A DNA stretch of 64,000 nt from a virus, in IMG/VR virus record IMGVR_UViG_3300035698_012128, positions 1-64,000 of that record; one strand, 5' to 3'. This document shows positions 38,317-39,895 of the stretch, one piece after another. The notes under the pieces were generated by a model. It ran no database searches. It was not told the origin of the DNA and saw nothing but the letters and a program-made list of their open reading frames with translations. The translations under genes and the position numbers were made by a program. Positions within the stretch are counted from its first letter, which is position 1, and each line of letters starts with the position of its first letter.

Positions 38317-38392
38317 TCTACAAAATTAGATTGATAATTCTTTTAATTTAAGGTTTCTTTCGTATATTTATGGTAGTAAAAAATAGAATAAA

Positions 38393-38555
38393 ATGTCTAA
38401 TAATAGAAAATGTAATTTTAGTATAATTTGTAGTGTGAGCTATTCGAGCTTATCACCGCAGCATAATTATCCTAATATATATACAGAGACTTAAGACAAT
38501 CAAAATACATAATGTTTGTTGGTAAATTTAGGTCTCATTTGAGACCTATTTTTCT
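38393..38555 (+). promoter_or_regulatory. Putative leader-peptide attenuator upstream of the tRNA cluster
   Basis: 33-aa ORF 38393-38494; GAGACTTAA (38486-94) complementary to TTAGGTCTC (38528-36); terminator TAGGTCTC-ATTT-GAGACCTA-TTTTTCT. Confidence 0.6.
38529..38555 (+). terminator. Intrinsic terminator
   Basis: Perfect 8-bp stem followed by a T tract. Confidence 0.8.
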
Positions 38556-38575
38556 GTCTAAAAGGTAGTTTTAAT

Positions 38576-38595
38576 AAAAGTTTCTTATTATATTT
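38576..38595 (+). promoter_or_regulatory. Putative early/middle promoter motif AAAGTTTCTT-N3-TATATT (representative copy)
   Basis: Variants near 17322, 19081, 38350, 40138, 42962, 44119, 44708, 47552, 55978, 56990, 59581, 60547 and 63033. Confidence 0.65.
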
Positions 38596-38638
38596 AGTAA
38601 TAAGAGTATAGTTAATTGACGTATTAGAAATTTGTAAT

Positions 38639-38726
38639 AGAGGGCTGGCAGAACTGGCACAATTGCACTAGTCTTGAAAACTAGAGACCGGTAAACGGTT
38701 TATGGGTTCGAATCCCATGCCCTCTT
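38639..38726 (+). tRNA. tRNA-Ser(TGA)
   Basis: CTAGT-CTTGAAA-ACTAG, long variable arm, GGTTCGAATCC. Confidence 0.92.
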
Positions 38727-38732
38727 CAATAA

Positions 38733-38803
38733 TGCCTTGTAGTGTAACGGCAGCACGCGTGGATTTGGCCCTCGCAGCATGGGTTCGAATCCCGTCAAGG
38801 TAT
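38733..38803 (+). tRNA. tRNA-Gln(TTG)
   Basis: TGCCTTG/CAAGGTA acceptor stem, loop ATTTGGC. Confidence 0.85.
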
Positions 38804-38804
38804 C

Positions 38805-38953
38805 TAAGTAGTAGAACAACTGATAGTTCAGCTTGCTAACAGATAAATTAAATTATAAGTCTGGTAAACAGGTTCAAAGTAGTTGAGAGAGGTTTAATAT
38901 CAATAGTACGTAAATTCAACTTTGTGGTGTAGGTTTGAGTCCTACCTACTTAA
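38805..38953 (+). ncRNA. 149-nt tRNA-like RNA with greatly extended anticodon and variable arms
   Basis: TAAGTAG/CTACTTA acceptor stem, GAAC/GTTC D stem, GTAGG-TTTGAGT-CCTAC T arm. Confidence 0.7.
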
Positions 38954-38973
38954 AACATTAATTAAAAACAATT

Positions 38974-39294
38974 ATGGCATTAGATTTAGAAGTACTAAGA
39001 AAAAAACTAGATGATGCTTTAGTATCAGAAACAAAAGAGAGTTTTGAAAAATGGTTCGAAAAAACTAGAATTGAAACTACTGAAAAAGATGTATTGAACC
39101 GTAACTACCATTTTCATATAGATGGTAATAAGTTAATTATCCAAAATTATTCTTATATGGATAGTGGGTGGTATGTAGAAGTAGATAGAAAAAAAGTATC
39201 GTTATATGAAGTATGGGAGGGTAATAAACCTCAAAAATACGGTGATTACGATACCATTTTAGAAGCTTTAAAAGATACGGTTAATTTAAGTTAA
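38974..39294 (+). CDS. Hypothetical protein in the tRNA cluster
   Basis: 106-aa ORF with A-rich leader. Confidence 0.6.
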   Translation: MALDLEVLRKKLDDALVSETKESFEKWFEKTRIETTEKDVLNRNYHFHIDGNKLIIQNYSYMDSGWYVEVDRKKVSLYEVWEGNKPQKYGDYDTILEALKDTVNLS

Positions 39295-39343
39295 GTTATG
39301 AATAGTTTACTAAACTTCTATTGAAAATAAAAAGTTTAAAATT

Positions 39344-39820: not shown

Positions 39821-39889
39821 GGGATAGATTCTTCGGAGAAACCAGATCTGTAAAATCTCACCTAGTAGGTTCGATGCCTGCCTATCCCA
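39821..39889 (+). tRNA. Atypical short tRNA with GTA anticodon
   Basis: GGGATAG/CTATCCC acceptor stem, TTCT-TCGG-AGAA mini D arm, AGAT-CTGTAAA-ATCT, GTAGG-TTCGATG-CCTGC. Confidence 0.7.
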
Positions 39890-39895
39890 CTAAAT

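What the first reader, a model, noticed from the sequence alone, without database searches (positions are those of the whole stretch)
38805..38953. 149-nt tRNA-like RNA with intact elbow but hypertrophied anticodon and variable arms
Seen: a perfect 7-bp acceptor stem, 4-bp D stem and 5-bp T stem in canonical spacing. The roughly 97 nt between them can form an extended anticodon-position arm (GCTTG..CAGA/TCTG..CAGGT) and a long variable arm (CAAAG..GTTGA/TCAACTTTG), with no 7-nt anticodon loop. It starts almost immediately after tRNA-Gln. Inference: an RNase P/Z-processed non-decoding RNA (decoy for tRNA-targeting defences, scaffold or carrier), or a tRNA with an unrecognised intron.
Basis: partly seen in the sequence, partly recalled or inferred. 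Interest (0 to 1): 0.72.

Follow-up and report, generated by a model that had tools for sequence, protein, structure and literature searches.

The report
Oversized anticodon-less tRNA relic in phage
Inside the tRNA gene array of an uncultured salt-lake phage sits a 149-base gene that keeps the ends and elbow of a tRNA but has background-like sequence where the anticodon should be. It is most likely a disrupted tRNA that is still cut out like one, an ordinary example of a kind known from phages T4 and T5.

Summary
The tRNA frame at 38805-38953 is real. It has a 7-bp acceptor stem, a 4-bp D stem and a 5-bp T stem, all Watson-Crick and in canonical spacing. The elbow is matched: G18-A19 in the D loop faces U55-U56 in the T loop. 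A strict descriptor hits only true tRNAs and this element in the window, against 0.013 hits expected per shuffled window.

The 97 nt between the frame halves show no sign of selection. Their fold is no better than shuffles (z +0.08) and their GC equals the genome's. No single excision restores an anticodon stem-loop. The element also lacks the C74 present at all 24 tRNAs checked. Rfam and default ARAGORN do not call it.

I found no homologue in the phage database, IMG/VR, 50 related or comparison records searched with a covariance model, a metagenome scan, or public runs, which hold only identical copies. Covariation therefore could not be tested.

Best reading (0.5): a disrupted, redundant tRNA, closest to an AT-rich tRNA-Pro, that is co-transcribed and probably still excised by RNase P. 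Main rival (0.28): a selected non-decoding tRNA mimic like T4 rnaC or T5 RNA1. The intron reading is not supported.

This scan has reported similar oversized tRNA-like genes in other phages. Interest is low to moderate.

The parts
38805..38953 (+). whole 149-nt tRNA-framed element (X149)
   Evidence: ARAGORN gives exactly these ends only with -i and -ps90
38805..38811 (+). acceptor stem 5' strand (UAAGUAG), followed by U8 A9
   Evidence: pairs with 38946-38952, 7 of 7 Watson-Crick; pair probabilities 0.84-0.97
38814..38829 (+). D arm: 4-bp stem and 8-nt loop AACUGAUA (A14, A15, G18, A19, A21)
   Evidence: p 0.73; the GA in the loop matches U56
38831..38873 (+). arm 1 at the anticodon-arm position: GCUUG/CAGGU base with two G-U pairs, CAGA/UCUG inner helix, 16-nt A/U loop holding AAAUU twice
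   Evidence: no excess stability; no anticodon loop
38875..38924 (+). arm 2 at the variable-arm position: GUUGA/UCAAC helix with a 29-nt loop; its CAAAG/CUUUG base is weak
   Evidence: 0.75 for the helix, 0.09 for the base
38929..38945 (+). T arm GUAGG-UUUGAGU-CCUAC (U54, U55, U56, A58, G53-C61)
   Evidence: The same 17-mer occurs in 50 IMG/VR contigs, in 28 of them inside a normal tRNA called by ARAGORN
38946..38953 (+). acceptor 3' strand plus discriminator A; the next bases are AAC, so there is no C74 and no CCA
   Evidence: C74 at 23 of 24 tRNAs as tabulated; the exception, His, encodes CCA by ARAGORN's end
38573..38600 (+). promoter-like repeat ahead of tRNA-Ser; likely start of the transcription unit that holds X149
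   Evidence: repeat families D8/D9 recur at 40135, 42958 and 45140; terminator-like hairpin upstream at 38529-38548 and none between 38600 and 39500
38639..38804 (+). tRNA-Ser(UGA) and tRNA-Gln(UUG) immediately upstream
38974..39294 (+). 106-aa ORFan that starts 20 nt after X149
   Evidence: (its only database match is itself)

Best explanation
X149 is a tRNA-derived gene that has lost its anticodon arm. It keeps a complete tRNA frame: acceptor stem, D arm, T arm and a matched A19:U56 elbow. The 97 nt in between look like unconstrained AT-rich sequence. It lies in a tRNA operon, one base after C74 of tRNA-Gln and 20 nt before a small ORF, with no promoter or terminator of its own. Inferred steps: it is transcribed with the array. 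RNase P cuts at 38805, because RNase P needs only the acceptor/T-arm stack and the elbow. The tRNA 3'-end enzymes cut near 38953. The result is a roughly 150-nt non-decoding by-product. The same cuts free the 3' end of tRNA-Gln and give the ORF's mRNA a short leader. Its likely origin is a redundant AT-rich tRNA. The nearest sequence is a tRNA-Pro(UGG) of a related contig, and a GC-richer tRNA-Pro(UGG) sits 390 nt downstream. Shown here: the frame, the lack of an anticodon loop, the background-like insert and the lack of homologues. Inferred: transcription, processing, origin, and the absence of a function of its own.
For: The frame is real and not chance. The elbow and core tertiary bases are present. 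Rfam tRNA scores only 17.1 bits against a threshold of 29, and only for an alternative partial reading with the anticodon arm deleted. Default ARAGORN is silent. All 20 amino acids are already served by the 25 called tRNAs. The insert's fold equals shuffles (z +0.08; +0.5). Insert GC is 0.309 against 0.308 for the window, while real tRNAs are 0.44-0.57 with one at 0.356. The arm 1 loop is low-complexity A/U sequence. No excision restores an anticodon arm. C74 follows the discriminator at all 24 tRNAs checked (His by its encoded CCA) and at the hidden Tyr-like gene, but not at X149. No homologue was found; related arrays put an ORF or tRNA-Asn after tRNA-Gln. The best match of both halves among 86 tRNAs is the L103 tRNA-Pro(UGG) (scores 28 and 34 against null maxima of 22.2 and 22.7; 23.1 bits with model R1). 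ORFs embedded in the array start 17-25 nt after a tRNA 3' end, and X149 fits that pattern.
Against: All 16 frame pairs are Watson-Crick and the tertiary A19:U56 pair is matched. That is more order than an old, freely decaying pseudogene should keep, so either the disruption is recent or the frame is under selection. Relative to the L103 tRNA-Pro, the stem differences are compensatory (pairs 1:72, 2:71 and 12:23) and none breaks a pair; the homology is only suggestive. T4 rnaC/rnaD and T5 RNA1/RNA2 show that oversized tRNA-like genes in phage arrays can give stable RNAs. Oversized frames also turn up in unrelated phage contigs. One real tRNA here is as AT-rich as the frame. Expression and processing could not be tested at all.
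Confidence: 0.5

Rival explanations
1. X149 is a selected, non-decoding tRNA mimic of the T4 rnaC / T5 RNA1 kind. The frame ensures RNase P processing, possibly CCA addition and stability. The two extra arms are the working part: they bind or titrate a host or phage protein (decoy or sponge), or serve as a scaffold.
For: The frame and elbow are perfect. Size and position match the annotated stable RNAs of T4 (139 and 119 nt) and T5 (144 and 125 nt, 'tRNA-like stable RNA with unknown functions'). Other oversized tRNA frames of 97-156 nt occur in unrelated phage tRNA regions. Model R1 scores two of them at 38 and 29.7 bits, the first biased by how it was retrieved. Other spacers of this same array are significantly structured, so the array does hold non-tRNA RNAs.
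Against: The insert shows no excess folding energy, has background GC and has no homologue. It lacks the C74 rule of the array. There is no anticodon loop for anticodon nucleases to bind. No Ro60 gene was found in the record, which is only 58% complete. By their MFE, the T4 and T5 RNAs are much more GC-rich and stable.
Confidence: 0.28
2. X149 is a tRNA gene with one or more unrecognised introns. These are removed to give a decoding tRNA, as proposed for oversized tRNAs of Lak megaphages.
For: ARAGORN with introns allowed and the threshold lowered to 90% calls tRNA-Leu(CAA) with a 62-nt intron on exactly these coordinates. Lak phages of Bacteroidota hosts are reported to carry tRNAs with conserved introns (PMC6784885).
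Against: The ARAGORN model has a mismatched anticodon stem, an insertion point at 33/34 and an unpaired 20-nt variable region. An exhaustive search finds no single excision that gives a clean 5-bp stem with a 7-nt loop. No group I intron or ribozyme match appears in Rfam even at E up to 10. No RtcB ligase was found in the incomplete record. No amino acid lacks a tRNA.
Confidence: 0.04
3. X149 acts in cis as a 5' leader element of the downstream 106-aa ORF. A tRNA-shaped structure would set the mRNA's 5' end or control its translation or stability, like the t-elements of plant mitochondria.
For: The ORF starts 20 nt after the element, the same 17-25 nt spacing seen after Trp, Met, Arg(ACG) and Cys. 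There is no promoter-like site between the element and the ORF. t-elements are a published precedent for tRNA-like structures that define mRNA ends (PMC1920247, abstract as listed).
Against: tRNA-Gln immediately upstream could do the same job, so the element is not needed for punctuation. The ORF is an ORFan with no relatives to compare. Nothing links the insert to the ORF.
Confidence: 0.1
4. X149 is a chance arrangement of complementary AT-rich words and is not tRNA-derived.
For: The genome is 31% GC. The first bases (UAAG) coincide with the usual C-UAAA trailer after tRNAs, and AAGUAGUA recurs after tRNA-Lys and tRNA-Leu(UAG). The overall MFE is not better than shuffles.
Against: The descriptor gives 0.013 hits per shuffled window and none on the opposite strand. 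The element sits inside the array on the array's strand, and the rare U56 is matched by A19.
Confidence: 0.02

Closest known systems
Phage T5 RNA1 (144 nt) and RNA2 (125 nt), annotated 'tRNA-like stable RNA with unknown functions' (NC_005859)
   Same: They are genes inside the phage tRNA array and abut tRNAs. They are 125-144 nt long. They have an acceptor-like closing stem and a canonical T arm, with 50-70 extra nt where the anticodon and variable arms belong (fold).
   Different: There is no sequence similarity beyond the T loop. The T5 RNAs are GC-richer (0.42-0.50) and fold far more stably (-37 to -38 kcal/mol against -28). They have been seen as stable RNAs; X149 has no expression data, no homologues and a background-like insert.
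Phage T4 species 1 and species 2 RNAs (rnaC 139 nt, rnaD 119 nt; NC_000866)
   Same: They are small RNAs encoded at the end of the tRNA cluster directly after a tRNA. rnaC has a canonical T arm next to its 3' end. Their function is unknown. From my own knowledge, not tested here: they are matured by the tRNA processing pathway.
   Different: They are not homologous. rnaC has only a weak acceptor stem and no clear D arm in the MFE, whereas X149 has the full frame. The T4 RNAs are known to accumulate.
'Intron'-containing oversized tRNAs of Lak megaphages (Devoto et al. 2019, PMC6784885)
   Same: They are oversized tRNA genes in phages of Bacteroidota hosts that bacterial tRNA finders do not classify.
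   Different: The Lak genes give a recognisable anticodon arm once the insert is removed, and their inserts are conserved across cohorts. X149 does neither.
tRNA pseudogenes and tRNA gene fragments in prokaryotic genomes (for example PMC9897764, title and abstract as listed)
   Same: It is tRNA-derived sequence that standard models score below threshold and that cannot decode.
   Different: X149 is not a truncated fragment. Both ends and the elbow are complete, and only the middle has been replaced and enlarged.
Bacterial and phage Y RNA-like YrlA (Rfam RF02553; PMC4201824)
   Same: It is a non-coding RNA with a tRNA-like domain.
   Different: The Rfam YrlA score is 16.2 bits against a threshold of 69, and the match spans the tRNA-Gln T arm plus the X149 D arm. 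No Ro60/TROVE gene was found in the incomplete record.

Membership tests
Canonical tRNA (Rfam RF00005 / ARAGORN) | Covariance-model score at or above the gathering threshold of 29 bits | tested here: not met
   No match at gathering. At E up to 10 there is only a 17.1-bit match for 38876-38953, with the anticodon arm deleted.
Canonical tRNA (Rfam RF00005 / ARAGORN) | 7-bp acceptor stem, D arm and T arm in canonical spacing, with core tertiary bases | tested here: met
   U8, A14, A15/U48, G18, A19/U56, A21, U54, U55, A58 and G53-C61 are all present.
Canonical tRNA (Rfam RF00005 / ARAGORN) | 5-bp anticodon stem with a 7-nt loop (U33, purine 37) | tested here: not met
   Absent as encoded and absent after any single excision.
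Canonical tRNA (Rfam RF00005 / ARAGORN) | Gene-end rule of this array: C74 directly after the discriminator | tested here: not met
   All 24 tRNAs checked and the hidden Tyr-like gene have C74 (His by its encoded CCA); X149 has A.
Phage tRNA-like stable RNAs (T4 rnaC/rnaD, T5 RNA1/RNA2) | Encoded within or abutting the phage tRNA cluster, on the same strand | tested here: met
Phage tRNA-like stable RNAs (T4 rnaC/rnaD, T5 RNA1/RNA2) | About 120-145 nt with a tRNA-like acceptor/T-arm end and extra internal structure | tested here: met
   149 nt with the full frame. The internal structure is not above chance.
Phage tRNA-like stable RNAs (T4 rnaC/rnaD, T5 RNA1/RNA2) | Accumulates as a stable processed RNA in infected cells | not testable with these tools
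   No RNA run is listed for this phage and there is no cultured host.
Phage tRNA-like stable RNAs (T4 rnaC/rnaD, T5 RNA1/RNA2) | Sequence or covariance homology to the T4 or T5 genes | not tested
   Only read side by side, where I saw no similarity beyond the T loop; T4 and T5 were not searched with model R1. The group is a kind, not a defined family.
Intron-containing tRNA | A canonical cloverleaf is restored after removal of one insert at a defined site | tested here: not met
Intron-containing tRNA | Recognisable self-splicing intron, or a splicing/ligation enzyme encoded nearby | tested here: inconclusive
   No Rfam intron or ribozyme match. No RtcB, but the record is only 58% complete and host enzymes are unknown.
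YrlA / Y RNA | Rfam RF02553 score, and a Ro60 (TROVE) gene in the genome | tested here: not met
   16.2 bits against 69; no TROVE match (incomplete record).
tmRNA | tRNA-Ala-like domain (G3:U70) plus a tag reading frame | tested here: not met
   Pair 3:70 is A-U. ARAGORN tmRNA mode finds nothing even at 80% threshold. No ATG lies within the element.

The most novel reading that the evidence does not exclude
X149 is a functional member of a broad, still undescribed class of phage 'giant tRNA-like' RNAs. The conserved tRNA frame buys RNase P processing, stability and access to tRNA-binding proteins. The fast-evolving insert is a lineage-specific cargo, for example a sponge for a host defence or RNA-modifying protein. 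That would explain why no sequence homologue is found.
Probability: 0.15. Interest if true: 0.65.

Novelty: new member of a known kind. Interest (0 to 1): 0.3.

Why it matters
It matters little on its own. It is one more oversized tRNA-like gene in a phage tRNA array, without homologues or expression data, and it may be only a disrupted tRNA. Its value is as a data point. It shows that the tRNA frame, including the covarying A19:U56 elbow pair, can outlast the anticodon arm. It also shows that this array mixes canonical tRNAs, a hidden reduced tRNA-Tyr-like gene and several structured spacers. If such frames are generally kept for RNase P processing or as protein-binding handles, they bear on the function of the T4 and T5 'stable RNAs', which are still annotated with none.

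Tried and rejected
Searches that found no homologue:
- blastn of 38600-39300 against 50,697 phage records.
- Exact 24-mer of the T arm plus acceptor in IMG/VR.
- BLAST of the element in 20 related IMG/VR records gave only short AT-rich chance hits.
- blastn with word size 7 of the element and all array spacers against all fetched loci; only an AT-rich promoter-like spacer matched.
- Loci fetched around relatives of the neighbouring ORF and of QueE. A few related contigs hold tRNA arrays, and there tRNA-Gln is followed by an ORF or by tRNA-Asn.
- A metagenome scan with the 3' end of this phage's tRNA-Gln gave one unrelated contig.
- Covariance model R1, built from the single sequence, was run over 50 records. 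Beyond the element itself it hit only two oversized frames that I had retrieved by T-arm identity, so they are biased, plus AT-rich chance matches that lack a T arm.

Other checks:
- Public runs: four salt-lake DNA runs hold identical sequence with no variants in the element. No RNA holder is listed.
- The two halves of the element are not significantly similar, so a tandem duplication is rejected.
- The alternative acceptor pairing from the internal AAGUAG repeat has probability 0.00.
- The insert is not a copy of anything else in the 94.7-kb genome. The best match is an 18-nt A/U word.
- The insert does not match the phage's promoter-like repeat in its spacing (by eye).
- TROVE, RtcB and CCA-adding enzyme families were not found in the record, which is 58% complete.
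- Literature searches found no paper on this kind of element in Flavobacteriia phages. The T4 genome review is not held in the paper library.

Full report
**What is there.** The window is the first 64 kb of a 94.7-kb IMG/VR virus record estimated to be 58% complete.
- The phage is AT-rich (31% GC) with a contractile tail. Its sheath, QueC/QueE, DNA polymerase and GroEL resemble those of Flavobacterium phage immuto and Tenacibaculum phages.
- Its DNA occurs in four salt-lake metagenome runs.
- ARAGORN finds 25 tRNAs that cover all 20 amino acids plus a UUA-anticodon tRNA. Twenty-four of them lie between 38.6 and 45.8 kb on the + strand; Rfam confirms 23 of these at gathering threshold and the last, Asn, at 49.9 bits in the E-value run.
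- The element (X149, 38805-38953) begins one base after the discriminator-plus-C of tRNA-Gln and ends 20 nt before a 106-aa ORFan.

**The frame is real.** The frame consists of:
- a 7-bp acceptor stem, then U8-A9;
- a 4-bp D stem with an 8-nt loop;
- a 5-bp T stem with a 7-nt loop that abuts the acceptor 3' strand;
- a discriminator A.

All 16 pairs are Watson-Crick. A strict descriptor of this arrangement hits six true tRNAs and X149 on the + strand and nothing on the - strand. In 150 dinucleotide shuffles it gave 0.013 hits per window.

The T loop is UUUGAGU, with U56 instead of the usual C. The D loop AACUGAUA has G18-A19 instead of GG. I retrieved every IMG/VR contig with the identical 17-nt T arm (50 contigs). 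Of 28 bona fide tRNAs among them, spanning many isotypes, 25 have GA rather than GG in the D loop. A19:U56 is therefore a regular covarying form of the elbow pair, and X149 has it. A14, A15/U48, A21, U54, A58 and G53-C61 are also present.

**It is not a working tRNA.**
- Rfam gives nothing at gathering. At E up to 10 it gives 17.1 bits for an alternative partial reading, 38876-38953, with the anticodon arm deleted.
- Default ARAGORN is silent. That model has a U-C mismatch in the anticodon stem, an insertion point at 33/34 and an unpaired variable region.
- An exhaustive search over all single excisions finds no mismatch-free anticodon stem with a 7-nt loop. The best one-mismatch solutions are non-canonical.
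- All 24 tRNAs checked encode C74 right after the discriminator (23 as tabulated, plus His, which encodes CCA), usually followed by UAAA. So does a hidden Tyr-like gene. X149 has A-A-C there.

**The insert shows no sign of constraint.**
The CAAAG/CUUUG base of arm 2 is only 0.09, and the alternative acceptor pairing from an internal AAGUAG repeat is 0.00.
- Folding energy is no better than chance: whole element z -0.56, 97-nt insert z +0.08 and +0.5.
- Insert GC is 0.309 against 0.308 for the window. The frame is 0.346. Real tRNAs are 0.44-0.57, apart from one AT-rich tRNA-Arg at 0.356.
- The arm 1 loop is a low-complexity A/U run.
- As an internal control, several other spacers of the same array are significantly structured (z -1.8 to -2.3).
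- The insert is not a copy of anything else in the genome. The two halves of the element are not a tandem duplication.

**Homologues.** I found none.
- blastn against the phage database.
- Exact words in IMG/VR.
- BLAST in 20 related records, and short-word blastn against all fetched loci.
- Covariance model R1 over 50 records. It returned only two oversized frames that I had fetched by T-arm identity, plus AT-rich matches that lack a T arm.
- A metagenome scan anchored on this phage's tRNA-Gln gave one unrelated contig.
- Public runs hold only identical copies and no RNA libraries.

The nearest relative (sheath 66% identical) has a dense array in a different order, with tRNA-Asn after tRNA-Gln. 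In other relatives tRNA-Gln is followed directly by an ORF.

**Origin.** Among 86 tRNAs from the window and its relatives, both the 5' 35 nt and the 3' 35 nt of X149 match best to one gene, an AT-rich tRNA-Pro(UGG) on the related contig L103.
- The scores are 28 and 34 against null maxima of 22.2 +/- 2.4 and 22.7 +/- 2.3.
- R1 also picks out this tRNA at 23.1 bits, and no other ordinary tRNA in the loci searched.
- The shared part runs into the 5' strand of the anticodon stem (CUUGCU) and then stops.
- Stem differences between the two are compensatory (pairs 1:72, 2:71 and 12:23) or improve pairing.
- The window phage has a different, GC-richer tRNA-Pro(UGG) 390 nt downstream.

This suggests, but does not prove, that X149 is an older tRNA-Pro made redundant and then disrupted.

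**Known analogues.**
- The T5 record annotates RNA1 (144 nt) and RNA2 (125 nt) as 'tRNA-like stable RNA with unknown functions' inside its tRNA array.
- T4 annotates rnaC (139 nt) and rnaD (119 nt) directly after tRNA-Arg.
- Folding shows that T5 RNA1 and RNA2 have a closing acceptor-like stem, a D-like arm and a canonical T arm around 50-70 extra nucleotides. X149 has the same plan.
- Lak megaphages of Prevotella are reported to carry oversized tRNAs with conserved 'introns' (PMC6784885).
- My descriptor and the T-arm set also turned up oversized frames of 97-156 nt in unrelated phage contigs.
- Earlier notes of this scan describe similar finds in other phages. I used those notes as leads to the T5 record and the Lak paper.

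X149 works like these RNAs in its layout. It is not a sequence relative of any of them.

**Mechanism and verdict.** The operon context supports co-transcription. A promoter-like repeat lies at 38573, a terminator-like hairpin lies upstream of it, and neither occurs between tRNA-Ser and tRNA-Pro.

RNase P and the CCA-adding enzyme are known to need only the acceptor/T-arm stack and the elbow. The intact frame should therefore be cut at 38805 and trimmed near 38953. This is an inference, not something shown here. The cuts would release a roughly 150-nt RNA that cannot decode. They would also finish the 3' end of tRNA-Gln and give the ORF's mRNA a 20-nt leader, the same 17-25 nt spacing seen after four other tRNAs in this genome.

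I put 0.5 on 'disrupted redundant tRNA, still processing-competent, insert without a function of its own'. I put 0.28 on 'selected tRNA mimic of the T4/T5 kind', 0.10 on a cis role for the downstream ORF, 0.04 on an intron-bearing tRNA and 0.02 on chance.

The perfect frame is the main argument against simple decay. The background-like insert, the missing C74 and the absence of homologues are the main arguments against a selected cargo.

The element is a new member of a known kind, and interest is low to moderate.

Noticed in passing
window 39821-39890 (+): A hidden 70-nt tRNA-Tyr(GUA)-like gene lies right after the canonical tRNA-Tyr. It has a 7-bp acceptor stem, a T arm, a 4-bp anticodon stem with loop CUGUAAA, and the C74-UAAA trailer. 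The D arm is replaced by a mini-hairpin with a C(UUCG)G tetraloop. ARAGORN calls it only at 80% threshold or in mitochondrial mode. Its fold has z -1.99. Rfam and default ARAGORN miss it.
   Followed up: partly
window 44230-44379 (+): The 150-nt spacer between tRNA-Leu(UAG) and tRNA-Thr is closed by a long terminal stem (AGUAGU with ACUACU, similar to X149's acceptor sequence). Its interior is GC-richer and it has no T arm. Fold z is -2.17. There is no Rfam match and no homologue in the fetched loci. It is a candidate small RNA.
   Followed up: partly
window 42034-42159 (+) and 41301-41358 (+): Two further structured spacers lie in the array. One is 126 nt with a 12-bp closing stem (z -1.79). 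The other is a 58-nt hairpin with an 8-bp stem (z -2.29). Neither has an Rfam match.
   Followed up: partly
window 38573-38600, 40135-40162, 42958-42985, 45140-45167; also 38343-38371 and 44112-44140: A repeated promoter-like motif (AAAGTTTC, then 5-7 nt, then TATATTTA) precedes blocks of the tRNA array. It probably marks the transcription units.
   Followed up: no
window, 3' ends of all tRNA genes between 38.6 and 45.8 kb: All 24 array tRNAs encode a single C after the discriminator (His by its encoded CCA), usually followed by UAAA. Only two (Pro and His) encode a full CCA. AAGUAGUA recurs just after tRNA-Gln, tRNA-Lys and tRNA-Leu(UAG).
   Followed up: partly
IMG/VR loci L181-L229: In phage tRNAs whose T loop has U56 (UUUGAGU), the D loop carries GA instead of GG in 25 of 28 cases. 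This is a clean A19:U56 covariation of the elbow pair across many isotypes.
   Followed up: partly
L185 (156 nt), L187 (111 and 114 nt, adjacent, sharing an internal ACUUACAAUACU motif), L186/L208 (about 100 nt), L213, L188, L196, L206, L222, L227: These are oversized tRNA-framed elements in unrelated IMG/VR phage contigs that default ARAGORN does not call. I did not check their contexts or conservation.
   Followed up: partly
window 45665-45754 (+) and 44855-44929 (+): One is a 90-nt tRNA with a CAU anticodon whose length suggests a long variable arm. The other is a tRNA with a UUA anticodon that would read the TAA stop.
   Followed up: no
L098 724-1115 and L099 677-1068 (records G002, G003): ARAGORN calls a 392-nt tmRNA gene with a tag peptide next to the small tRNA cluster of two related phage records of 133-161 kb.
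   Followed up: no
window 30847/30873, 38953/38974, 40375/40397, 41531/41553, 43753/43771: ORFs embedded in or beside the array start 17-25 nt after a tRNA 3' end. This suggests that tRNA processing sets the 5' ends of the mRNAs.
   Followed up: no
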